Shown here piece by piece: positions 26,408 through 39,376 of a stretch of DNA of 64,000 nt. Origin of the DNA: Ostreococcus lucimarinus (lineage: Eukaryota); assembly GCA_000092065.1 (NCBI GenBank), contig CP000600.1; one strand, 5' to 3'. Made by a program: the position numbers and the translations under genes. Within the stretch, counting starts at the first letter, position 1. Every line of letters begins with the position of its first letter. The notes under the pieces were generated by a model. It was not told where the DNA came from. It did not search any database and saw nothing but the letters and a program-made list of their open reading frames with translations.

Positions 26408-26800
26408 TCACCCCGAATCGGCGTCCGATGTCGACGAAAAGTTAGGACAAGCTAGAACGTGTAACTCTCGTGTCGTCACAAAAGTTTCGGCGACGTTCGC
26501 GCCGTCGAGCGGTGCGAAGTCGCGCCGAACCATCGCGAGCAAACCATCACACACCATCTCAAATGATGCAAAATCCATCATTCGGGCGCTTAAATCGCGT
26601 CCGAATTCGACGAAAAGTTGGGAAAAGCTGGAGAACGAAAAGTTCTCGCCGTCGGCGCGAAAAGCATAAAGAAACCAAGCGATACCGGGGGTTCCTGACG
26701 TCTTCCGACATCGGTACTTATCCGGCCCACGCGGTCTTAACTGAGAAGTTCCGATGGGTTTCTGTGATTTTCCGCGGGTGTGGTCGCTTGATGACACCAT
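26408..26800 (-). CDS. candidate small orphan protein (130 aa), low confidence
   Basis: This is the only protein-like ORF in an otherwise unassigned interval of about 1 kb (MVSSSDHTRGK...GIAWFLYAFRADGENFSFSSFSQLFVEFGRDLSARMMDFASFEMVCDGLLAMV...). Its position fits the local architecture: tail-to-tail with MAD2 and head-to-head with the Ldh_2 gene. It has low GC3 and no recognised family. Confidence 0.3.
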   Translation of the reverse strand: MVSSSDHTRGKSQKPIGTSQLRPRGPDKYRCRKTSGTPGIAWFLYAFRADGENFSFSSFSQLFVEFGRDLSARMMDFASFEMVCDGLLAMVRRDFAPLDGANVAETFVTTRELHVLACPNFSSTSDADSG

Positions 26801-28491: not shown

Positions 28492-31400
28492 TTAAGCAGT
28501 GGCTTCAACTCCAGCCTTAACATCGTTCGTCGCCTCCGGCGTGTTCGCCTCAGACGGCGGAACTAACTGCCAGAACTTGGGCAAATAGTTGGCCCAGTCA
28601 GCGAGGATAGCCTTCGCCTTCGGCGAGTTCGTCTTCTCGGCGTGCGCGGAGATGAGACCCTTGAGTTGGGCCTCACCCGCCGGCGTGATCACGCGCTGCA
28701 TGGCGACAATCTCGCCGTTCACCTTGGATTCGAACGTACCGTCTTCGTCGAGGAAGTAACCGATGCCACCAGTCATACCCGCGCCAACGTTGCGGCCAAC
28801 CTTGCCGATCGCGACGACGCAACCACCCGTCATGTATTCGCAGCAGTGGTCGCCAGTGCCTTCAACGACCGCTTCACCGAGCGAGTTACGGACGGCGAAG
28901 CGTTCACCAGCGCGACCGCTGATAAACACTTGACCACCAGTGGCGCCGTACAAGCACGCGTTACCCGCGATGCTCGCCGACTCCGGCGCGAACGGAGAGT
29001 TCGGAGGAGGCATGATGGCAATCTCACCGCCACTCATGCTCTTCGCCACGTAATCGTTCGCTTCACCCACAAGTCGCACTTTCAGGCCACCGACAACGAA
29101 AGCACCGAAAGATTGACCGCTGGAACCCTCGATGTCTAAGGTGAGAGAACCAGCGAAGCCATTGTCGCCGTACTTCTTGGCGATTTGACCGGCGACGCGC
29201 GCCGTCGCGCAACGGTCGACGTTGACAATCTCCACCTTCTTCGTGTACGTGCCTTCGGTTTCGATGCACTTTTGGACTTCCGGATCGCTAAGGATCTTGT
29301 CATCGAGAACGATACCGTCGTTGTGCACCGGTTGCGCGATGCGGTCCGAGGAAGCGCCAGCCTCGCCAGAGGACGTGGTGAGGAAGGACAAGTCGAGAGA
29401 CGAAGTCTTCGCCGGCGCCTTGTCAATTTGGCTGAGCAAGTCGTTGCGACCGATGATCTCATCGAGAGATCTGTAACCCATTTGGGCGAGGATCTCGCGC
29501 ACTTCTTGCGCGGCGTACATGAAGAAGTTGACAAGATCGCTTGGCGCACCGGGGAAGCGCGCGCGAAGCTCTTCGCGCTGGGACGCAACACCAACGGGGC
29601 AGTTGTTGGTGTGGCAAATACGAGCCATGACGCAGCCAGTGGCAATCATCGCAACGGTACCGAAACCGTATTCATCGGCACCCATGAGAGCGGTTTGGAT
29701 GACGTCAAGACCGGAGCGGCAGCCACCATCGGCGCGCAAGACGACGCGCTCGCGAAGGCCATTCTCAACGAGAGTTCTGTGCGATTCGACGAGACCCATC
29801 TCCAACGGACCACCGCAGTGCTTGATGGACGACAAAGGAGACGCGCCGGTACCACCATCGCCACCCGAAATTTGGATGATGTCGGCGTTCGCCTTGGCGA
29901 CGCCGGACGCCACCGTGCCGATGCCCGCTTGGGACACGAGCTTCACGGACACCTTCGAGTTCTTGTTGACCATGTGCAAGTCATAGATGAGCTGCGCGAG
30001 ATCCTCAATGGAGTAGATGTCGTGATGCGGCGGCGGGGAGATGAGCGGGACACCAGCCTTGGATCGGCGGAGCCAGGCAATGTACGGGGAAACCTTCTTA
30101 CCCGGAAGCTGACCACCTTCTCCCGGCTTGGCACCTTGCGCCACCTTGATTTCGGTCTGGTTGGCAGACATCAAGAACGACGTCGTGACACCAAAGCGAC
30201 CGGAAGCGACTTGCTTGATAGCGGAAGACGCGACGTCGCCATTCTCCATGCCTCGAAGGTACGGGAACGTTTCAGACTTGCCATCCGCGGTGGCGTCAGT
30301 GATGGTTTCGAATCGCTTCGGGTCTTCGCCACCTTCACCAGAGTTGGATTTACCACCGATGCGGTTCATCGCGATGGCGATAGATTCGTGGCACTCTTGG
30401 GAGATAGCACCGAGAGACATACCACCCGTGCAGAAGCGCGTGCAAATGTCAGCGACGGATTCGACCTCATCGACGGAGATCGGTTGGCGGTCAGACTTGA
30501 TTTCGAGTTGATCGCGCAAGCACGTGTACGGACGATCGTTGCGGTGCGCTTGGTAGGCGCTCCAGAACTCATCATTCTTTTCACCACCACCGAGGCCAAC
30601 AGCCTTGTGAAGAAGCTTAGACATCTCTTGGTTGTTGCCGTGGTATTCCAATCCCGGCTTGACTTGGAACATACCGCGCGCCTCAACCTTGGCCATCTCT
30701 TCAGCCTCACCCGGGAAAGCGGACTGGACAAACATGTGCGTCTCCGCGGCAACTTCATCCATGGTGAGACCACCGATGCGGGAAACGGTGCCCTTGAAGG
30801 CGGTGTTGATGACTTCAGGCCCAAGACCGTAGCACTCGAAAATTTGCGCGCCTTGGTACGAGGTGATCAAAGAGATACCCATCTTAGACAAGATCTTCTT
30901 GAGACCCTTGTTGAGGGCATTCTTGAAGTTGACTTGCACACCTTCCACAGAGACATCACCCATCTTACCGCGCTGGATGGCGGTCTCGACCTTCGGGGAC
31001 TTTCTCCATGACCGGCAGGTTTCCAAAGCCAACCACGGGCACACAGCGTGTGCGCCGAAACCAACCAAGGTGGCAATGTGGTGCGTGCTGAACGCCGAAG
31101 CAGACTCCACGACGATAGACGCGCGGGTTCGAAGACCTTGCGCGATCAAGTAGTGGTGCACGGTACCAACAGCGAGAAGCGAGGGAATCGCGGGCGAGTC
31201 CGGACCTTGATCCGGACGATCCGTGATGACGATGCACTCGCTGCCGGCGCGAATCGCCGCGGCGGCCTCTTCGCAAAGCTTGTCAAGGCCAGCCTTGAGG
31301 GCACCAGCGGCACCACCAGCGGCGTAACGCGCGGCAATAGTTTGCGTCTTCAGCTTCGGGTGGTTCTTAATGTGCTCCAACTCAGAGTCGAAGAGGACCG

Positions 31401-33446
31401 GGGAGTCGAGCATGACCGGCGGCGTTTCCTTGCCTTGCGTGTCGAGCAAGTTGCCCTTCGCACCAAGAGTCATGGCCAAGGACATGACGAGACCCTCGCG
31501 AAGAGGGTCGATGGCGGGGTTGGTAACTTGCGCGAAGCGTTGCTTGAAGTAGTCATAAAGCAAGCGCGGTCGGCCAGACAAGACGGGCATCGGGGTGTCG
31601 TCGCCCATCGACCAAGTGGGTTCGATGGCATCGGACGCCATCGATTCAATGATCATCGTGATGTCTTCGGCGGCGTAACCGGCGCGAGCTTGGCACTCGA
31701 TGAGTTGGATCGGGTCCAGTTGCGTCGCGCCAATGGGTTCGATGCCCTTGACGCGATCGATGGCCTTCATCCATTCGCCGTACGGGAGGCGCGCGGAGAC
31801 TTCCTTCGCGATTTCCGTATTTTCCTTGAACTCGCCCGTCTCCAAATCAGCGTAAATCATCATACCCGGGCCGAGACGGCCCTTGGAGACGACATTGGAC
31901 GCGTTGGACATGACATCACCGAGGACACCAACTTCCGAGGCGACGTAGATGTAATCATCGGACGTGCGCCAGAAGCGCGCCGGGCGCAACCCGTTGCGGT
32001 CGAGGCGGGCGCCGAGCTGCTTGCCATCGGAGAAGACGAGCAACGCTGGACCATCCCACGCTTCTTGCATCCCAGCGTAATAATCGTAGAAATCATGAAC
32101 TTCCGGGAACGTCGCATCGAGTTCGGGGTGGTTGCGGTGCGCTTCTGGCACAAGCAACATCATAGTCTCCGCCGGCGCGCGGCCGGTTCTCACCAGGAGC
32201 TCCGCGACTCTGTCGAGGTTGGCGGAATCGGAGGCAGCCGGATTACAGATCGGGCGGAATTCCGGTTCACGACCGCCCCAGATCGGGTTCTCCATATCAG
32301 CTTCCTTAGACGCCATCCAGTTCAAGTTACCTTGAAGGGTGTTGATCTCACCGTTGTGTCCCAAGAAACGCATCGGTTGCGAGAGTGGCCACTTCGGCGT
32401 CGTGTTCGTGGAGAAACGGCGGTGGTAAATCGAGAACTGCGACTCGTAGTCGGGGTCTTCCAAATCCTTGTAGAACTTGCCCAACACCGCGGATCGAAGC
32501 ATACCCTTGTACACAATCGTGCGGGAGCTCAAGGTGCAAATGTAGAAGCTCTCAGCTAACACGGCGTCGGAGCTCGCCGACTTTTCGCACGTCTTGCGCG
32601 CGATGAACAACTTGCGCTCGAGCTCTTCGCGTTCCAAGCCCGCCCCGTCGACGAGAATCTGTTCGTGCACCGGGCACGTCATCTTCGCGAGCGGACCGAC
32701 GACGGAGTTGTCCACCGGAACCGCACGCCAACCGAGCACCTTGAGGCCTTCGGCGACGCAGCTCGCCTCAAGAATCTTCTTCGCCTCAGCCGCCTTGGCA
32801 CCGTCGGTGGGCAACATAACCATACCGACCGCCGAGGAGCCTTCAGAGAATCCACTGATACCATTCGCCGCGCACCACTTGTCCAAAAGCTTCCACGGAA
32901 TGTGCGTCATGACACCGACACCATCACCAGAGTCGTTGTCCGCCGAGCACGCCCCGCGGTGCTCCATGCACCCGACAGCCATCAAGGAATCTTTCACAGT
33001 CTTGTGCGTGCGCTCACCCTTCAACGAAGCGATGAAACCGACCCCGCACGCATCATGCTCTTCCAAAAGCTGCGTGTTATCCACCGCACCGCCTTCATAC
33101 ACGGGCCAATCGCCGTACACCGACCCTCGCTCCGCCAGGCACACCGTCTTCGCGCGGTCGCGTCCCGGCACGCGCACCGTCGAGCACTTGGGCAACGCCG
33201 CGGGCTTACGCAACGTCACCGGGGACGGAGTAAACTTCTGCGCGATGTAAATGATCACACTCTACCGTCAGTCTTCTTCGTTCGACGTTCGATCGACGCC
33301 TTCGCGCCTCGCCTTCGGCCCGTCTTTTAAACGCGCATTCGCCGTTCGTGATTCGTCGCGGGGTGACTCTTGGAAAACAAGCCCTAACCCCCTTCGCGCG
33401 TCGTCGCGCGCGTCTTACGCACCGCTTGGTTCCCCAACGCGCGCAT
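28492..33446 (-). CDS. GLU: ferredoxin-dependent glutamate synthase (Fd-GOGAT), chloroplast precursor (main exon 33237..28492; proposed 24-nt first exon 33446..33423)
   Basis: The ORF of about 1580 aa begins its mature part at the Ntn Cys ([12 protein letters not shown]). It then shows the amidotransferase, central, FMN/3Fe-4S ([15 protein letters not shown]) and GXGXG C-terminal domains. The main ORF has no in-frame ATG upstream of the catalytic Cys and is closed by TAG two codons above its GTG. Proposed exon 1 is ATG CGC GCG TTG GGG AAC CAA GCG|GTGCGT. Confidence 0.93.
33238..33422 (-). other. proposed 5' intron (185 nt) of Fd-GOGAT
   Basis: GTGCGT donor after 8 codons (MRALGNQA), aagACTGACggt branch box 32 nt upstream of the TCGCGCAG acceptor, phase 0/0. 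The spliced product is [34 protein letters not shown]..., a plausible transit peptide. Confidence 0.55.
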
Positions 33447-33962: not shown

Positions 33963-36506
33963 ATGGAGTCGAAAAATAAAGCTTCGCGTGAACGGACGCG
34001 AACGCGGCGAGCGCGGCGAGCGTCGATTGGGTGTCGCGCTTTCGCGGCGTTGGCGAGTTGGTGCTGCGCGTCGCGGGCGCGAGGCGCGCACGGACGCTCG
34101 TGCGGGACGTGGGACGTCGCGCGGGTGGCGAACGTGGTGAATGGAATTGAAATTATGATCAGTGGGGGCTCGAGGGTGGAGGAAGCGCCGCGGACGGTGT
34201 GGGTGAATGGACGAGAGCGCTGCGCGAGCGAGTCGTTCTCGACGACGGCGACGACGGCGACATGCGTCATCGTCGAAGCGAACGAAAGAGCGCTGCGTGC
34301 GGCGAGAGATTTTGTGCGAGAGTTTACGTCAGTAGGTCGTGTGCAAGTGTGGGTGGCGAGTTTGCCGCCACGACTGATCGTGGACGCAACGACGAATACG
34401 CGGCACGCGTTGCGTACGATGGACGACGTCCTGAACGCGACGCGGACGGAGACGGAGACGAAAGAAGCGGATTTCAGGGTTGCTACCACCCGTGTTTACG
34501 CGTCATTCACCGTCGATGATCGCCAGTACGAAGAGAGCGCGGAGTATAAAGCCTTTGTCATCGCAACGAGTCACGCGCTCGATTCAACATCAAGGATGAG
34601 AACGCCAATCGATCCGCCTCGCGCGGGTGGCGCCGAAATATTTCGTCTCGACCTTGCAAACGCAACAAAGACGATCGAATTCATTGATCATCACCGAACG
34701 CGGTCGTTTTATCGCGTGACGTGTTGCGTTTCGGTTGGGCGATCGACTTTTGTACTATCCTTCGACGACGGCTCAGAGTGCACCGTGCGGTCGCCGAGTC
34801 GCGATCCAGTAAGACACTTGCGAGGAACAACCAATGATCCTTGCGTCGCCAAAGATCTCAGCCTACCTTATCCGGACGATATCACGTTAGAGTTTACGCC
34901 AAGCGAGCGAGCGACGTTCGACGAGTACCGAGGATTTTATCGTGGAAGTTACGAGAAAATGATGCGAGCCAAATCGAAATTTGCGCTCGCGGTGAGATTT
35001 GATGAAGGCCCGCGCTTGAGAGCTACGGCGCGTTTTCGAGGTGTATCCTCATTTCGAGATTGTGAACGGCGAAAGAGTCTCACCGTAGAGCTCGACGGGC
35101 GAGGCGTGCGCTTGATGCCTGGTTCCTTCGGGACAAAATTCCTGCTGATCAGCCTGTGCATCGATGATCGATACGTAAAGACACACCTCGTGTTGTCGAT
35201 GGCGAAGGCGCTCGGGACGTTTCCGCACGCTTTTCGATACGTCAGGTTAAAAATACGCACACGTGGTCAGAAAAGAGTGGAACATTCTGGCTTATACCTG
35301 CTCATGGATGACCCAAAGTCTTCGCTCGAGCGCGCGCACAATCAGCTCTCCGTCGTCGTGCGCCGACGGTTCGATCCAGCGAGGAAGAATTTTACCAGTT
35401 CCAAGGGTGTGCCCGAAGTGAAATCTTATCCAAATACAGATATTGAAGCAATCGCAGGTCGCGTACGATACGAACGCGTCGTTCTCGCAAGCGAGAGCTG
35501 CGAAGATAAAGCTTGTTTCGACGTTTTGAACAATTTGATCGACCTAGAAGGCTACCTTAGTTGGATGGCGCTGATGACGTGGGTCGAGTCGGGCGATTAC
35601 GTCGATGAACTCTGGTTATACGCATCAAATGAGAATGATGGGAAGCACCGTTTCAAAGTTCACGCGTGGGACCCTGACGATTCTTTTGAGTCTTGTCATC
35701 ACGGCGGCGAAGATGCAATCGTTGGGCTAGGCAATCTCCTGTACTGCGCGGAGGGCGCCATCGATCGCGTACTCGTACGATCTGAAAGCATGCGTGCTCA
35801 TTACATCAAGATTCTCAACGAAGTTCTTCGAGATAGACTAAACGAGCGAGCACTTCGGGAGATCGTTGATGCGCAAGAAGGACAAATTCGTCGGCTCCTC
35901 AACGACGATGACACCGCTCTCGGCCTGCTTGAGCTTCGGGAAATCGAGCCATCGATCGATAGCGCGACGGAGGCTGTGAGTGAAATCATCGGTTCATTGC
36001 GTTATTACAGAGACGTGATAAATTTTCGCAGACGTTCCTTGTTGCGCGACGCAGAAGCTTACGCATCATTCGACCCGAGCGCCACGGCGTGGACGTCGCA
36101 ACCAACGGCGGACGATTGCGACGATGGTGCGCCTACATTAGTGACGCAAGTACGAAGTTATGATAGGATTGATCAAGATATTTTGCTCAAAGTCAGTGGT
36201 AATGGTGGATCATACGCGCTGAACGTGTCTTTTGATCCCATCGTTGTCTACAATGGCTCGACGTACGTCGCCACGCGAGACGAGTTCGTGCTGGAGAGAT
36301 GGTCTTCTGAACAACACGAAAATGTCACACGCATGGCGATGTCATCGCCATGCGTGAGAACTTTCATCGGGGGTGGATACATCGTTCTGAGTTCCATTTG
36401 CGATGACTCAATCCCTCACATGTTTTCACTGCATCATCGATTCTGGCATGGTTTTGCCAACGCGTCTTCGCCGATGATAGTTAGTCGCCTACTCGGATGT
36501 GTGTGA
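33963..36506 (+). CDS. CotH-kinase-family-like protein with N-terminal hydrophobic signal/anchor (847 aa)
   Basis: ATG ORF whose N-terminus is ...IGCRAFAALASWCCASRARG. CotH-like blocks are ATARFRGVSSFRDCERRKSLTVELDG, GTKFLLISLCIDDRYVKTHLVLSMAKALG, YVRLKIRTRG..HSGLYLLMDDPK and IDLEGYLSWMALMTWVESGDYVDELWLYASNENDGKHRFKVHAWDPDDSF. Recognised by pattern only. Confidence 0.65.
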   Translation: MESKNKASRERTRTRRARRASIGCRAFAALASWCCASRARGAHGRSCGTWDVARVANVVNGIEIMISGGSRVEEAPRTVWVNGRERCASESFSTTATTATCVIVEANERALRAARDFVREFTSVGRVQVWVASLPPRLIVDATTNTRHALRTMDDVLNATRTETETKEADFRVATTRVYASFTVDDRQYEESAEYKAFVIATSHALDSTSRMRTPIDPPRAGGAEIFRLDLANATKTIEFIDHHRTRSFYRVTCCVSVGRSTFVLSFDDGSECTVRSPSRDPVRHLRGTTNDPCVAKDLSLPYPDDITLEFTPSERATFDEYRGFYRGSYEKMMRAKSKFALAVRFDEGPRLRATARFRGVSSFRDCERRKSLTVELDGRGVRLMPGSFGTKFLLISLCIDDRYVKTHLVLSMAKALGTFPHAFRYVRLKIRTRGQKRVEHSGLYLLMDDPKSSLERAHNQLSVVVRRRFDPARKNFTSSKGVPEVKSYPNTDIEAIAGRVRYERVVLASESCEDKACFDVLNNLIDLEGYLSWMALMTWVESGDYVDELWLYASNENDGKHRFKVHAWDPDDSFESCHHGGEDAIVGLGNLLYCAEGAIDRVLVRSESMRAHYIKILNEVLRDRLNERALREIVDAQEGQIRRLLNDDDTALGLLELREIEPSIDSATEAVSEIIGSLRYYRDVINFRRRSLLRDAEAYASFDPSATAWTSQPTADDCDDGAPTLVTQVRSYDRIDQDILLKVSGNGGSYALNVSFDPIVVYNGSTYVATRDEFVLERWSSEQHENVTRMAMSSPCVRTFIGGGYIVLSSICDDSIPHMFSLHHRFWHGFANASSPMIVSRLLGCV

Positions 36507-36529: not shown

Positions 36530-37792
36530 CTACTGCGGCGCTTCTGGGACCGGCGCCGCGGATTTCCACTCTGGTTTGAGCCCCCACAAACCCATATTCG
36601 GCCCACGTCTCGTCAAAAGCGCGATTTCGCCCAAGTTTGTCTTTAGCCAATCCACCGGTTGCTTCGTCTCGAGGATCAGCTGCTTCAGACTCCAATACGG
36701 TTGTCGCTCGAACAACCCGAAGAGGACATTTTCCAGGGCCTTCTTTTCCATGCGTTCCTTCTTTTCCTTCTTATTTGATGCGGCGTCGGTGAACCGAATC
36801 AAGTTTCTCGCCTTGGGCAGCGGCGCGAAACGCATCTCAGACGAGCTCTGCGTTACTCTCGTCTTAGTCTGTGCCTGAATCATGCGATCTTTACTAACTC
36901 TATGGTAATCGACATCGTCGATCGATGTCGGACGCATGTCTAACTTCAAGTCCACTTTGGCCTCGAGGGTGATGTCCGCCTGCCCGCTCGTCGTCCCCTC
37001 GCGAACGTCGGAAAACACGCGCATCGGCATATCACTCGGCTGATTGGCTAAAATGTACTGCTTCGGCACGCCGTTCGCCTCTTTTCCGGTGAGTTCCATG
37101 ATCGCGTGCGTCATGTGCTTGGTTTTGTCCTCCTGGAACGGGTCGACGAAGACGCGAACTGTGCCGATGGCGGGCTCGTCCTCCTCCTTGGTGTCCGTAT
37201 CCATGTCATCATCATCCGCCATCGCCTGCTTACTCGCCGCCGCGGCTTCGTGGAACACTCGCGAAACAAATTTCGGCACCTTGACTAACCACGCGTTGCG
37301 ATCGCCCCGCGTGGTGTCGAGCGCGGTGGGCCACAAATACGCCTTGAGCGCGTCGACGACGGCTTCTGGAATGTCCGCCTCCTTAATCCCGAGAATCTTG
37401 CACGCCTGGTGTCGCCAGTGCGCGCGATACATCGACGGTGGACCATCCTTTCTCCACACTGGATCGTCATACTTCTCCGCACCCGCCCTGTGATGGATGA
37501 AACGCGCGCGTCGCTCGGTCAGTCGGCCCGTTCGCCCGGCGAGATCGACTCAAAACTTCCCCATCATCGCCCTCAACCTCCCTCCCGCCGCGCGTCGCGA
37601 CCGCGCACTGCGCGCACACGTACCCTAATCGCTCGTGATTCAACAATCCGAGCACCTGTTTCACCTTCCCCGCCGCCGTTCGCTTCTTCGTCAACCAATC
37701 CTTGATCGCCTGTTGCAACTCCTCCGAGTTCGCCGGCAACTCCTCGTCCTGCGTTCGCCATCGCGGCATCGCGCGCGCGTCGTCAGTCACCA

Positions 37793-37824
<32 letters not shown>

Positions 37825-37970
37825 CCTCGCGTCCCGCGCGTCGTCCGTCTCGTCCCCGCGCGCGTTCGCCTCCGCCCATCCATCCGTCGTCGTCGTTTCC
37901 TCGTCGTTTCCTCCCCCCCCCGCGCCGTCGCCGACGTCCTCGCGCGCGCGCGTCGCACCTCTTCGCTCAT
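36530..37970 (-). CDS. GTF2F2: transcription initiation factor TFIIF beta subunit (RAP30) with N-terminal extension (3 exons: 37970..37959, 37748..37624, 37487..36530)
   Basis: Core landmarks are NAWLVKVPKFVSRVF and the C-terminal winged helix LFGLFERQPYWSLKQLILETKQPVDWLKTNLGEIALLTRRGPNMGLWGLKPEWK. The TFIIF frame stays open with coding-like sequence up to a CACAG acceptor at 37488. It joins in phase to an upstream exon ending ...LLNHERL(G) at AGG|GTACGT. A 12-nt first exon ATGAGCGAAGAG|GTGCGA is proposed. The conservative single-exon start is the ATG at 37432. Confidence 0.8.
37488..37623 (-). other. spliceosomal intron 2 (136 nt) of TFIIF-beta
   Basis: GTACGT donor, ccgACTGACcga branch box about 28 nt upstream of the CATCACAG acceptor. 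The 2 nt + 1 nt phase restores the TFIIF frame. Confidence 0.65.
37749..37958 (-). other. proposed intron 1 (210 nt) of TFIIF-beta, containing a (GAC)10 repeat
   Basis: GTGCGA donor directly after MSEE, gtgACTGACgac branch box 31 nt upstream of the AACGCAG acceptor, phase 0/0. The alternative is no intron and a start at the ATG at 37793. Confidence 0.45.
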
Positions 37971-38288
37971 CCTCGCGCCTCCGCGCCGTCGCGCGCCCGT
38001 CGTCGTGTGCGGCGGCGTCCCGCGCGCGCGCGACGTCGCCGCGCCGAAATCCTCGCCTCGGCGCCCGCCGCCGACGTCGTCGCTGTGTACCCATACACCC
38101 GTACCCTTGAGTCGTGAACCGTCGACAAAAAGCACGGTCGCGCATCCATCGATCGCGTCGATCGCTCGCGCGCGCGCGACCCGCGCGGCGTCGATCGCTC
38201 GCGCGCGCCCGACCTCGCGACGCGGGTCGACGACGATCGCGCGTCGCGATCCGACGAACCGGGCACCCTCGACCGCACCGCGCGACCG

Positions 38289-39344
38289 ATGGATCGACAC
38301 GCGTTCTTCGCCGCGCAGGCGTGGTTGACGGCGACGACGACGCGCGCGCGCGACGGCGCGCGTGCGAGCGACGACGGCGACGGCGACGACGGCGCGACGC
38401 GCGAGCGCGAGGAGATATACGCCGGGACGTGCTCGTTTTCGTGCGCGGACGAGGAGCAGTACGAGACGCGGGCGATCGCGACGATGGACGGCGACGACGC
38501 GGCGGACGACGGGGAGGACGACGCGGCGGACGACGGGGAGGAGGACGCGGCGGAGAATGGAAGAGGGCGACGGCGCGCGCGGCCGCGCGGCGCGCTGGCG
38601 AGAGATGCGCAGCACTTGACGTTCGGGACGACGGCGACGCTGCGCGACCCGGCGAGCGTTCGAGTGTCGTTCGCGGCGGTGAAAACGACGTTCGGAGCGA
38701 GCTCGGGAACGGGGTCGGGATCGACGAGCGTGGGGGATGCGACGACGGCGAACGCGCGCGCGCGAATTGAGCTCGAGTGTGAGCTCGACGGTCAGACGTA
38801 CAGGATGTCGACGCGAACGTGCCGCGCCGTCGTGAAATCGTTCAAGGAGACGGCGCGATCGGGGCACACCGAGGCTTTTCCGCGGTATTTGAGCGTCATT
38901 TTCCCTCACGTCACCATGAACGTATACTCTGCCGCGGAATCCGACGCTTCGTGGGACGGTTTGCGCGCGCTCGCGCGCGCTTTGACGGACCCCGCGCTCG
39001 CGACGACGAAGACGACGACGACGACGAGCGAAAACTACGACGACGGACACGACACCGACCCCGACGGAAACGATCCGAGTCCAGTGGGCGTGGGGAAGCC
39101 GAATCCTCTTCCACGTTCGATCGGGAACGAGATCGATCTCGAGACTGTCGCGCTCGCGGACGCCGACGCCTTTGCCGCGCAGCGTTTCGCCGCCGACGCT
39201 CTCTGCGACGCCGCTCGGCTCCTCGTCGCCGACGGCGATCCGTGGCGAACGCTTTCGCACGACTTGCTCGCTCACGGCGTGCGCGACGTTTTCGCGGACG
39301 ATCCATCCGCGTACGCCGGGCGCGCTTTTCCAGGCGACAAGTAA
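38289..39344 (+). CDS. hypothetical protein (351 aa)
   Basis: ATG ORF with non-repetitive, mixed amino-acid composition in its C-terminal two thirds (ELECELDGQTYRMSTRTCRAVVKSFKETARSGHTEAFPRYLSVIFPHVTMNVYSAAE...). The opposite-strand 629-aa ORF is Arg-rich and codon-aligned antisense. No family recognised. Confidence 0.5.
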   Translation: MDRHAFFAAQAWLTATTTRARDGARASDDGDGDDGATREREEIYAGTCSFSCADEEQYETRAIATMDGDDAADDGEDDAADDGEEDAAENGRGRRRARPRGALARDAQHLTFGTTATLRDPASVRVSFAAVKTTFGASSGTGSGSTSVGDATTANARARIELECELDGQTYRMSTRTCRAVVKSFKETARSGHTEAFPRYLSVIFPHVTMNVYSAAESDASWDGLRALARALTDPALATTKTTTTTSENYDDGHDTDPDGNDPSPVGVGKPNPLPRSIGNEIDLETVALADADAFAAQRFAADALCDAARLLVADGDPWRTLSHDLLAHGVRDVFADDPSAYAGRAFPGDK

Positions 39345-39376
39345 AAGCGTGGACATCCAACCGGGCGATGCGAATC

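What the first reader, a model, noticed from the sequence alone, without database searches (positions are those of the whole stretch)
33963..36506. CotH-kinase-like protein with a signal/anchor sequence in an algal nuclear genome
**Seen in sequence.** The 847-aa ORF starts with a short basic stretch followed by a hydrophobic segment (IGCRAFAALASWCCASRARG). Its central part matches my memory of the CotH family block order:
- an RG-x-SS...KKS-type strand (ATARFRGVSSFRDCERRKSLTVEL)
- the D-D-x-Y...lG block
- the Y-x-x-L-x-i-N/R...G-x-Y-x-L-x-d block
- the diagnostic ...LWLYASNENDGKHRFKVHAWDPDDSF (N-x-Y-x-Y...G-k...W-D-x-D-x-s-F)

**Established knowledge.** CotH is an atypical protein kinase of Bacillus spore coats. 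Among eukaryotes it is best known from Mucorales surface invasins.

**Inference.** A secreted or membrane-anchored CotH-like kinase in a wall-less picoalga would have an unknown substrate. It could reflect horizontal acquisition. The body of the gene is visibly less GC-rich than its neighbours, but so are other long genes here.
Basis: partly seen in the sequence, partly recalled or inferred. Interest (0 to 1): 0.55.

Follow-up and report, generated by a model that had tools for sequence, protein, structure and literature searches.

The report
Secreted CotH-type kinase gene in Ostreococcus
This gene in a tiny marine green alga encodes a real but ordinary member of the CotH atypical-kinase family, probably a secreted enzyme; related picoalgae carry it in the same chromosomal position, its closest non-algal relatives are myxobacterial lipoproteins, and the Ostreococcus tauri ortholog is already annotated as CotH.

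Summary

The N-terminal hydrophobic stretch is weak in this copy. Orthologs have clear signal peptides or anchors at the same place, and 12 cysteines are invariant, which points to the secretory pathway.

The gene is not a recent import. It sits between Fd-GOGAT and TFIIF-beta, as in O. tauri chr14, two other Ostreococcus-like lineages, a Bathycoccus-like contig and a Micromonas-like contig. Its low GC recurs in the Ostreococcus-like and Bathycoccus-like orthologs.

The nearest non-algal relatives are Myxococcota lipoproteins that share the vWA-like N-domain plus CotH architecture. The algal sequences form one clade nested among them, which suggests an ancient bacterium-to-alga transfer.

The O. 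tauri ortholog is already annotated "Spore coat protein CotH", and patchy eukaryotic CotH arising by LGT is published. This is a new member of a known kind, with unknown substrate and modest interest.

The parts
33963..36506 (+). Complete intron-less CDS (847 aa plus stop) of the CotH-family protein
   Evidence: ORF listing. It aligns over its full length with 11 orthologs. dN/dS is 0.18 against an 80%-identical sister lineage.
33963..34025 (+). Basic N-terminal stretch, aa 1-21 (10 Arg/Lys), the putative cytosolic n-region
   Evidence: Read from the sequence. Ostreococcus- and Bathycoccus-like orthologs also have long basic n-regions.
34026..34070 (+). Weak hydrophobic segment, aa 22-36 (IGCRAFAALASWCCA), a putative signal peptide or type II anchor core
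   Evidence: KD15 is 1.40 here against 1.9-2.65 at the homologous place in most orthologs. It is conserved in sister lineage L029 as AFAAWASWCCA. AF2 models it as a helix at low confidence.
34095..34247 (+). Small all-beta N-terminal module, aa 45-95
   Evidence: Strands 50-58, 61-68, 79-81 and 85-91 in the AF2 model, pLDDT about 85. C87 is nearly invariant.
34248..34727 (+). vWA-like alpha/beta domain, aa 96-255, without a MIDAS motif
34860..36062 (+). CotH protein-kinase-like domain, structural extent aa 300-700 (Pfam match aa 357-693 = nt 35031-36041)
35037..35078 (+). R359-G-V-S-S363 ... R370-K371-S372, the candidate nucleotide-binding loop and beta3 lysine
   Evidence: Invariant in orthologs. 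G360 and R370 are invariant and S363 is >=90% conserved in the 40-sequence algal plus bacterial set. R370 and K371 are invariant in A3. The functional assignment is an inference, not aligned to the solved structure.
35592..35609 (+). Catalytic-loop motif G544-D545-Y-V-D548-E549
   Evidence: D545, D548 and E549 are invariant in all 40 sequences. The profile alignment to 5jd9 places D545 opposite B. cereus D224 and E549 opposite N229. B. subtilis D228Q is inactive (PMC7821199).
35667..35681 (+). W569-D570-P-D572-D573, the metal-binding (DFG-equivalent) motif
   Evidence: W569 and D570 are invariant in all 40 sequences. The motif aligns to WDYD 246-249 of 5jd9. B. subtilis D251A is inactive.
36090..36503 (+). 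Alga-specific C-terminal beta-sandwich domain, aa 710-847, with invariant C797, C813 and the H824-H825-R-F-x-H829 motif
28492..33258 (-). Upstream, divergently transcribed neighbour: ferredoxin-dependent glutamate synthase (synteny anchor)
   Evidence: ORF. It is 95/91/88/75/75% identical to the GOGAT genes flanking the CotH orthologs in L001, L005 (O. tauri), L003, L027 and L028, where Pfam lists GATase_2, Glu_syn_central, Glu_synthase and GXGXG.
36530..37459 (-). Downstream, convergently transcribed neighbour: TFIIF beta subunit (synteny anchor)
   Evidence: ORF. It is 71-75% identical to the TFIIF_beta genes (PF02270) downstream of CotH in L001, L003 and L005, and 42-44% identical in L027 and L028.

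Best explanation
The gene encodes a catalytically competent CotH-type atypical protein-kinase-like enzyme that enters the secretory pathway. The architecture is an N-terminal basic and hydrophobic signal or anchor, a small beta module, a MIDAS-less vWA-like domain, the CotH kinase domain, and an alga-specific beta-sandwich. In the lumen of the ER or Golgi, or at the cell surface, it would transfer the gamma-phosphate of ATP to Ser/Thr of secreted or surface proteins. D545 would act as catalytic base, and D570 with E549 (or D548) would hold the divalent metal. The vWA-like and C-terminal domains would serve substrate docking. It is a vertically inherited positional ortholog throughout Mamiellales. 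It probably descends from one ancient transfer of a Myxococcota-type surface CotH lipoprotein gene into an ancestor of these algae. Shown here: family membership, fold, residue conservation, purifying selection, synteny, and bacterial nearest relatives. Inferred: kinase activity, secretory location, protein rather than glycan substrate, and the direction of transfer.
For: Family and fold:
- Pfam CotH scores 196 bits over the full profile.
- The AF2 model has pLDDT 87.9 and pTM 0.88.

Active site:
- D545, D548, E549, W569 and D570 are invariant in 40 algal and bacterial sequences.
- They align with the B. cereus CotH catalytic-loop Asp and the WDYD metal motif.
- The corresponding B. subtilis mutants are inactive.

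Constraint:
- dN/dS is 0.12 in the CotH domain and 0.18 overall.

Secretory pathway:
- Orthologs have hydrophobic N-terminal segments with KD 1.9-2.65.
- Micromonas-like copies have classical signal peptides.
- There are 20 Cys, 12 invariant in orthologs and 6 invariant even in the bacterial lipoproteins, plus 7 N-glycosylation sequons.
- Mucorales CotH proteins also carry signal peptides (PMC9973265).

Vertical inheritance:
- The GOGAT(-)/CotH(+)/TFIIF-beta(-) slot is the same in 5 lineages, including O. tauri chr14.

Bacterial origin:
- 20 of the 21 GTDB loci are deltaproteobacterial-type MAGs: 16 are labelled Myxococcota, Myxococcales, Polyangiales, Nannocystaceae or Bradymonadales, 3 are generic (Delta)proteobacteria and 1 is unlabelled; the remaining locus is labelled Thiotrichales.
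- The relatives carry lipoboxes and share the N-domain.
- The algal clade has 100/100 NJ bootstrap support. It is nested among the bacteria in 97/100 replicates when rooted with a paralogous CotH.
Against: - This copy's own hydrophobic segment is weak (KD15 1.40, interrupted by Arg). Its Arg/Ala/Ser-rich N-terminus could also be read as an organelle presequence. No dedicated signal-peptide predictor was available.
- The catalytic-loop Asn of Bacillus CotH is replaced by Glu, with a one-residue shift in the alignment, so the metal geometry is unverified.
- The N-lobe Lys could not be aligned to the solved structure.
- No substrate is known, and no expression or activity data were found.
- The trees are NJ only, with a distant outgroup (about 22-24% identity) and mostly unlabelled sequences.
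- Other Viridiplantae were not sampled, so an older eukaryotic origin is not excluded.
Confidence: 0.6

Rival explanations
1. The protein is a secretory-pathway kinase, but its substrate is a glycan or another non-protein molecule. Examples of this kind are Fam20B xylose kinase and POMK. It would modify cell-surface or secreted polysaccharides or glycoproteins.
Against: The only CotH enzymes with known activity phosphorylate proteins: CotB and CotG in Bacillus (PMC7821199). The CBM-like and Fam20 matches are weak and generic for beta-sandwiches and kinase folds. The beta-helix neighbour is absent from the algal loci.
Confidence: 0.2
2. The protein is a non-enzymatic surface or adhesion protein, like the Mucorales CotH invasins. 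The kinase fold would then be only a scaffold, and the vWA-like and beta-sandwich domains would mediate binding.
Against: The catalytic and metal-binding acidic residues are invariant across 40 algal and bacterial sequences, and the CotH domain is the most constrained part (dN/dS 0.12 against 0.36 for the N-domain). The Mucorales GRP78-binding motif QTNDGAY is absent. The vWA-like domain lacks a MIDAS motif.
Confidence: 0.12
3. The gene is a recent horizontal acquisition or assembly contaminant in this genome, as its low GC might suggest.
For: Gene GC is 0.542 against 0.595 for the window, and GC3 is the lowest of about 33 long ORFs. A 90%-identity cluster member is labelled '[bacterium]' in NCBI (MDA9627201.1).
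Against: The same gene occupies the same slot between GOGAT and TFIIF-beta in O. tauri chr14 and four other Mamiellales-like lineages. The GC deficit recurs in the Ostreococcus-like and Bathycoccus-like orthologs (0.495 vs 0.573, 0.482 vs 0.547, 0.531 vs 0.589, 0.443 vs 0.479). The '[bacterium]' label is best explained as a mis-binned MAG contig. No relatives were found in viral contigs.
Confidence: 0.02
4. The protein is targeted to an organelle or stays in the cytosol. On this reading the Arg/Ala/Ser-rich N-terminus is a transit peptide or presequence, not a signal peptide.
For: The N-terminus (MESKNKASRERTRTRRARRAS...SRARGAHGRS) is rich in Arg, Ala and Ser with few acidic residues, and the hydrophobic core is sub-threshold.
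Against: Orthologs have genuine hydrophobic cores of 15-21 residues at this position, and Micromonas-like copies have short classical signal peptides. Many cysteines are invariant, including ones shared with the bacterial lipoproteins, which are exported from the cytoplasm.
Confidence: 0.06

Closest known systems
Ostreococcus tauri 'Spore coat protein CotH' (CEG02107.1 / XP_003083017.2 / UniProt A0A096PBS5, chr14)
   Same: It is a positional ortholog. It has the same flanking genes (Fd-GOGAT upstream, TFIIF-beta downstream), the same three-part architecture and the same invariant residues.
   Different: It is only 49% identical, although the neighbouring GOGAT is 91% identical. The O. tauri copy has a stronger N-terminal hydrophobic segment (KD15 about 2.0 against 1.4). 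Neither has been studied experimentally.
Bacillus CotH spore-coat kinase (B. cereus 5JD9/5JDA; B. subtilis CotH)
   Different: Sequence identity is only 15-16%. Phmmer and the ortholog profile do not find it at all. Bacillus CotH is a roughly 360-aa single-domain protein of the spore coat with no signal peptide. The algal protein has an extra vWA-like N-domain, a C-terminal beta-sandwich, many conserved cysteines, and Glu in place of the catalytic-loop Asn. No CotB- or CotG-like gene lies next to it.
Myxococcota CotH-family lipoproteins (e.g. NUN14378.1, Myxococcales MAG; loci L006-L026)
   Same: They are the closest non-algal relatives: 32-36% identity over the CotH domain, a shared vWA-like N-domain, shared invariant cysteines and the GD-x-x-DE / WD-x-DD motifs.
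   Different: They are bacterial lipoproteins with a lipobox Cys, 650-750 aa long, and lack the algal C-terminal domain. In the two loci inspected they lie in a CotH / beta-helix / CotH cluster that the algal loci lack.
Mucorales CotH invasins (Rhizopus CotH2/CotH3; 17 Mucor paralogs)
   Same: They are eukaryotic CotH-domain proteins with signal peptides, predominantly extracellular, thought to derive from prokaryotic LGT.
   Different: The GRP78-binding QTNDGAY motif is absent here. At this locus there is a single conserved copy rather than an expanded family. No GPI signal was examined. The acquisition was independent, since the algal clade groups with Myxococcota.
Fam20C / Fam20B / Four-jointed secretory-pathway kinases of animals
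   Different: This protein is not a family member. There is no Fam20 Pfam hit, and the structural similarity is only at the level of the general kinase fold.

Membership tests
CotH kinase family (Pfam PF08757) | Significant full-length match to the family HMM, above the curated threshold | tested here: met
   196.4 bits against a 23.8 cut-off, E=1.1e-57, profile 2-322/322, aa 357-693.
CotH kinase family (Pfam PF08757) | Atypical protein-kinase-like fold of the solved CotH structure | tested here: met
CotH kinase family (Pfam PF08757) | Catalytic-loop Asp (B. subtilis D228; D228Q is inactive) | tested here: met
   D545 aligns with B. cereus D224 in the profile alignment to 5jd9 and is invariant in 40 sequences. 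The B. subtilis to B. cereus numbering is inferred from the identical 23-residue Asp-Asp spacing. Mutant data come from PMC7821199.
CotH kinase family (Pfam PF08757) | Metal-binding Asp of the W-D-x-D motif (B. subtilis D251; D251A is inactive) | tested here: met
   W569-D570-P-D572 aligns with WDYD 246-249 of 5jd9. W569 and D570 are invariant.
CotH kinase family (Pfam PF08757) | Catalytic-loop Asn five residues after the catalytic Asp (B. cereus N229) | tested here: inconclusive
   The aligned residue is Glu (E549), with a one-residue gap. D548 and E549 are invariant in the whole algal plus Myxococcota subfamily. Glu could also ligate metal, but the geometry was not examined.
CotH kinase family (Pfam PF08757) | Nucleotide-binding loop and beta3 Lys in the N-lobe | tested here: inconclusive
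   The RGxSS (359-363) and R370-K371-S372 motifs are conserved. The HMM alignment to 5jd9 did not cover the N-lobe, so the assignment is an inference.
CotH kinase family (Pfam PF08757) | ATP-dependent phosphotransfer activity | not testable with these tools
   This needs a biochemical assay.
Mucorales CotH invasins | GRP78-binding 'CotH motif' (M/Q/A-E/M/A-QTNDGAY-...) | tested here: not met
   QTNDGAY and looser patterns are absent from the protein. The motif is as given in PMC9973265.
Secretory proteins (signal peptide or type II anchor) | N-terminal hydrophobic core preceded by basic residues | tested here: inconclusive
   Query KD15 is 1.40, with an Arg inside the core. Orthologs reach 1.9-2.65 at the aligned position, and Micromonas-like copies have classical signal peptides. 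No SignalP or TMHMM was available.
von Willebrand factor A (vWA) domains | Rossmann-like beta-alpha-beta vWA fold | tested here: met
von Willebrand factor A (vWA) domains | MIDAS metal site (DxSxS after beta1) and a sequence match to the VWA families | tested here: not met
   There is no Pfam VWA hit at E<=1. The sequence after beta1 is VIVEANERAL. The bacterial relatives also lack DxSxS there.
Fam20 / Four-jointed secretory kinases | Sequence membership in the Fam20 family | tested here: not met

The most novel reading that the evidence does not exclude
Mamiellales picoalgae captured a myxobacterial surface CotH lipoprotein gene before their radiation. They turned it into a lumenal or cell-surface kinase, an independent green-lineage counterpart of the animal Fam20C/Four-jointed secretory phosphorylation system, and added an alga-specific HHRFWH beta-sandwich domain. 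Its fast evolution (48-53% identity where the neighbouring GOGAT is 88-95%) could reflect surface interactions such as prasinovirus adsorption or bacterial contact.
Probability: 0.25. Interest if true: 0.6.

Novelty: new member of a known kind. Interest (0 to 1): 0.3.

Why it matters
If the protein is an active lumenal or surface kinase, it would be a tractable entry point to extracellular or secretory phosphorylation in the green lineage. O. tauri allows gene targeting by homologous recombination, and the orthologous locus carries a single copy. It would also be a clean example of an ancient bacterium-to-alga transfer of a whole two-domain architecture. As it stands, it is a correctly recognised but already annotated family member whose substrate and role are unknown.

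Tried and rejected
- Phmmer of the protein and an ortholog-only profile (A1) against PDB sequences found no CotH structure. Only the broader 40-sequence profile reached 5jd9, at E=1.8e-6.
- NCBIfam gave no hit.
- The first AF2 run with 12 orthologs was poor (pLDDT 63.9, active-site stretch below 50) and was replaced by the 40-sequence run.
- A second word-indexed homolog search with alignment A2 returned nothing new and no names.
- Two further cluster look-ups gave one informative name, the Myxococcales label on NUN14378.1, and no species names for the algal clusters. The Bathycoccus- and Micromonas-like assignments therefore rest on GC content (0.48, 0.69) and 75% GOGAT identity.
A bacterial-only alignment (A4) worked.
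- The viral contig scan found no relatives.
- AFDB Foldseek was unavailable.
- Nguyen et al. 2016 (PNAS) is not held, so catalytic-residue facts come from PMC7821199.
- Literature searches for CotH with Ostreococcus or green algae, and for the WGS prefixes MDSX/MDSW, found nothing relevant.
- Recent HGT or contamination was considered and rejected on synteny.
- The longer 971-1257-aa proteins were first taken for paralogs. P0075 and P0014 turned out to be positional orthologs in other genera.
Full report
**Observation.** The window holds an uninterrupted 847-codon ORF at 33963-36506 on the + strand. An in-frame stop lies 20 codons upstream of the first ATG. Against Pfam the protein has one hit, CotH (PF08757), at E=1.1e-57 and 196.4 bits (cut-off 23.8). 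The hit spans profile positions 2-322 of 322 over aa 357-693. NCBIfam has no hit.

**Organism and context.** The upstream, divergently oriented gene (28492-33258, -) is a ferredoxin-type glutamate synthase. The downstream, convergent gene (36530-37459, -) is TFIIF-beta.
- The same arrangement (HORMA, Fd-GOGAT(-), CotH(+), TFIIF-beta(-), KH, L19, Fmt) is found around the orthologs in O. tauri chromosome 14 (CAID01000014.2, L005) and in two other marine lineages, L001 and L003.
- The window's GOGAT is 95%, 91% and 88% identical to those three. The window is therefore an Ostreococcus species other than O. tauri.
- Two more distant CotH proteins first looked like paralogs. They occupy the same GOGAT/TFIIF-beta slot on a contig of 48% GC (P0075, 971 aa, L027, Bathycoccus-like) and on a contig of 69% GC (P0014, 1175 aa, L028, Micromonas-like). 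GOGAT is 75% identical in both.
- The gene is thus a positional ortholog across Mamiellales and has been inherited vertically since their common ancestor.
- An additional algal CotH (P0078, 972 aa) lies at a different locus on a 70%-GC eukaryotic contig.

**Composition.** The gene is less GC-rich than its surroundings (0.542 against 0.595). Its GC3 of 0.575 is the lowest of about 33 long ORFs in the window. The same deficit is seen in the Ostreococcus-like and Bathycoccus-like orthologs, though not in the Micromonas-like copy. It is therefore a long-standing property, perhaps reflecting low expression, and not a scar of recent transfer.

**Rate and constraint.** CotH evolves much faster than its neighbours. 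It is 53/49/48% identical between lineages in which GOGAT is 95/91/88% and TFIIF-beta is 71-75% identical. Even so, against an 80%-identical sister lineage (L029) dN/dS is 0.18 overall. By region it is 0.12 in the CotH domain, 0.36 in the N-domain and 0.16 in the C-domain. This is purifying selection on a functional gene.

**Structure.** With 12 orthologs AlphaFold2 gave a poor model (pLDDT 63.9). With a 40-sequence alignment that includes bacterial relatives it gave pLDDT 87.9 and pTM 0.88.
- Foldseek agrees, with E=1.4e-11 and TM 0.71-0.77 to 5jd9/5jda.
- Residues 710-847 form an all-beta sandwich with weak CBM3-like and cytokine-receptor-like matches. It carries an invariant HHRFWH motif and two invariant cysteines.

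**Active site.** Across 40 algal and bacterial sequences the invariant residues include D545, D548, E549, W569, D570, H579 and E597. A profile of that alignment reaches 5jd9 by sequence at E=1.8e-6.
- It aligns GD545-YV-D548-E549 with B. cereus FD224-GFVH-N229.
- It aligns W569-D570-P-D572 with W246-D247-Y-D249.
- The 23-residue Asp-Asp spacing in B. cereus equals that of B. subtilis D228 and D251, whose mutants are catalytically inactive (PMC7821199).
- The catalytic Asp and the metal-binding Asp are therefore conserved. The catalytic-loop Asn is replaced by an invariant Glu in this subfamily.
- The N-lobe motifs RGxSS and RKS are conserved but could not be anchored to the structure.

**Targeting.** The query's N-terminus is a 21-residue basic stretch followed by a weak hydrophobic segment (KD15 = 1.40, with an internal Arg). 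At the aligned position most orthologs have cores of KD 1.9-2.65 after long basic n-regions, which looks like a type II anchor. Micromonas-like copies have short classical signal peptides. Twelve cysteines are invariant among orthologs. Six are invariant even in the bacterial lipoprotein relatives. There are seven N-glycosylation sequons. Together these favour entry into the secretory pathway, but no dedicated predictor was available.

**Relatives and origin.**
- An exhaustive HMM search of 1.84 billion representatives with the ortholog profile found only 644 hits at E<=0.001. That is few for a domain as widely annotated as CotH, so this looks like a narrow subfamily.
- Beyond the algal sequences, the hits are 650-750-aa proteins with lipobox signal peptides. 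They share both the vWA-like N-domain and the CotH domain but lack the algal C-domain.
- One cluster is named 'CotH kinase family protein [Myxococcales bacterium]'.
- A scan of GTDB species genomes returned 21 loci, 16 of them labelled Myxococcota, Myxococcales, Polyangiales, Nannocystaceae or Bradymonadales MAGs; the rest are three generic (Delta)proteobacteria MAGs, one unlabelled assembly and one Thiotrichales MAG.
- In NJ trees of 125 sequences the 19 algal representatives form one clade with 100/100 bootstrap support.
- Rooted with the paralogous second CotH of two Myxococcota loci, that clade is nested among the bacterial sequences in 97/100 replicates.
- This supports one ancient transfer from a Myxococcota-like donor, followed by vertical descent and addition of the C-terminal domain.
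- The trees are rough: NJ only, a distant outgroup, mostly unlabelled sequences, and no other Viridiplantae sampled.
- No relatives were found in viral contigs.

**What is already known.** The O. tauri ortholog is annotated 'Spore coat protein CotH' in NCBI and UniProt. The exact protein of this window is present in an NCBI WGS record. De Mendoza et al. [quoted passage not shown] No paper was found that discusses CotH in Ostreococcus or other green algae.

**Verdict.** This is a CotH-type atypical kinase that is very probably secretory, and it has an ancient bacterial ancestry. It is a new member of a known, already annotated kind. Its interest is modest: an uncharacterised and possibly lumenal or surface kinase, conserved at one locus across Mamiellales, with an alga-specific C-terminal domain and an unknown substrate.

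Noticed in passing
L008 2968-7915 and L010 2818-7822 (Myxococcota MAG loci): In both bacterial loci the related CotH lipoprotein gene is followed on the same strand by a roughly 640-aa right-handed beta-helix protein (PF13229) and then a second, divergent CotH-domain protein (E=6.8e-56 and 3.2e-53). This looks like a conserved CotH / beta-helix / CotH cluster and may hint at a polysaccharide- or surface-related function. In L008 the upstream gene encodes a protein with MopE Cu-binding motifs and FG-GAP repeats.
   Followed up: partly
window 36090-36503 (aa 710-847): An alga-specific C-terminal beta-sandwich domain has invariant C797, C813 and an H824-H825-R-F-x-H829 (HHRFWH) motif. It has no Pfam hit and is absent from the bacterial relatives. 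It could be a metal- or carbohydrate-binding module.
   Followed up: partly
window 26674-26791 (-): A 5S rRNA gene (Rfam RF00001, 71.2 bits, full length) lies about 1.7 kb beyond the 3' end of the GOGAT gene (28492). No tRNA genes were found in the 64-kb window.
   Followed up: no
window 37467-39356 (-) and elsewhere: Very long Arg-rich antisense ORFs (for example 629 aa) overlap the likely real genes on the other strand (for example 38289-39344 +, which matches the syntenic 325-aa gene without a Pfam hit in L001/L003). They are artefacts of the high GC content, so ORF length alone is unreliable here.
   Followed up: no
window, whole: There is a strong GC mosaic at the 1-kb scale, from 0.47 to 0.71. 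Gene 5' ends and intergenic stretches are very GC-rich and gene bodies are lower. A low-GC stretch at about 57-60 kb (0.47-0.51) was not examined.
   Followed up: no
L030 8001-10919 (70% GC eukaryotic contig): A further algal CotH (P0078, 972 aa, classical signal peptide) lies at a different locus, flanked by SET-domain, HSP70, Mtr4-like helicase, an NAD-dependent epimerase and Laa1-like genes. At least some Mamiellales-like genomes therefore carry a second CotH gene of the same subfamily.
   Followed up: partly
cluster of the query protein: A 553-aa member of the query's 90%-identity cluster is deposited in NCBI as 'CotH kinase family protein, partial [bacterium]' (MDA9627201.1). It is probably an Ostreococcus contig mis-binned into a bacterial MAG. 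Gene callers also disagree on the start, giving 793-aa and 847-aa versions.
   Followed up: no
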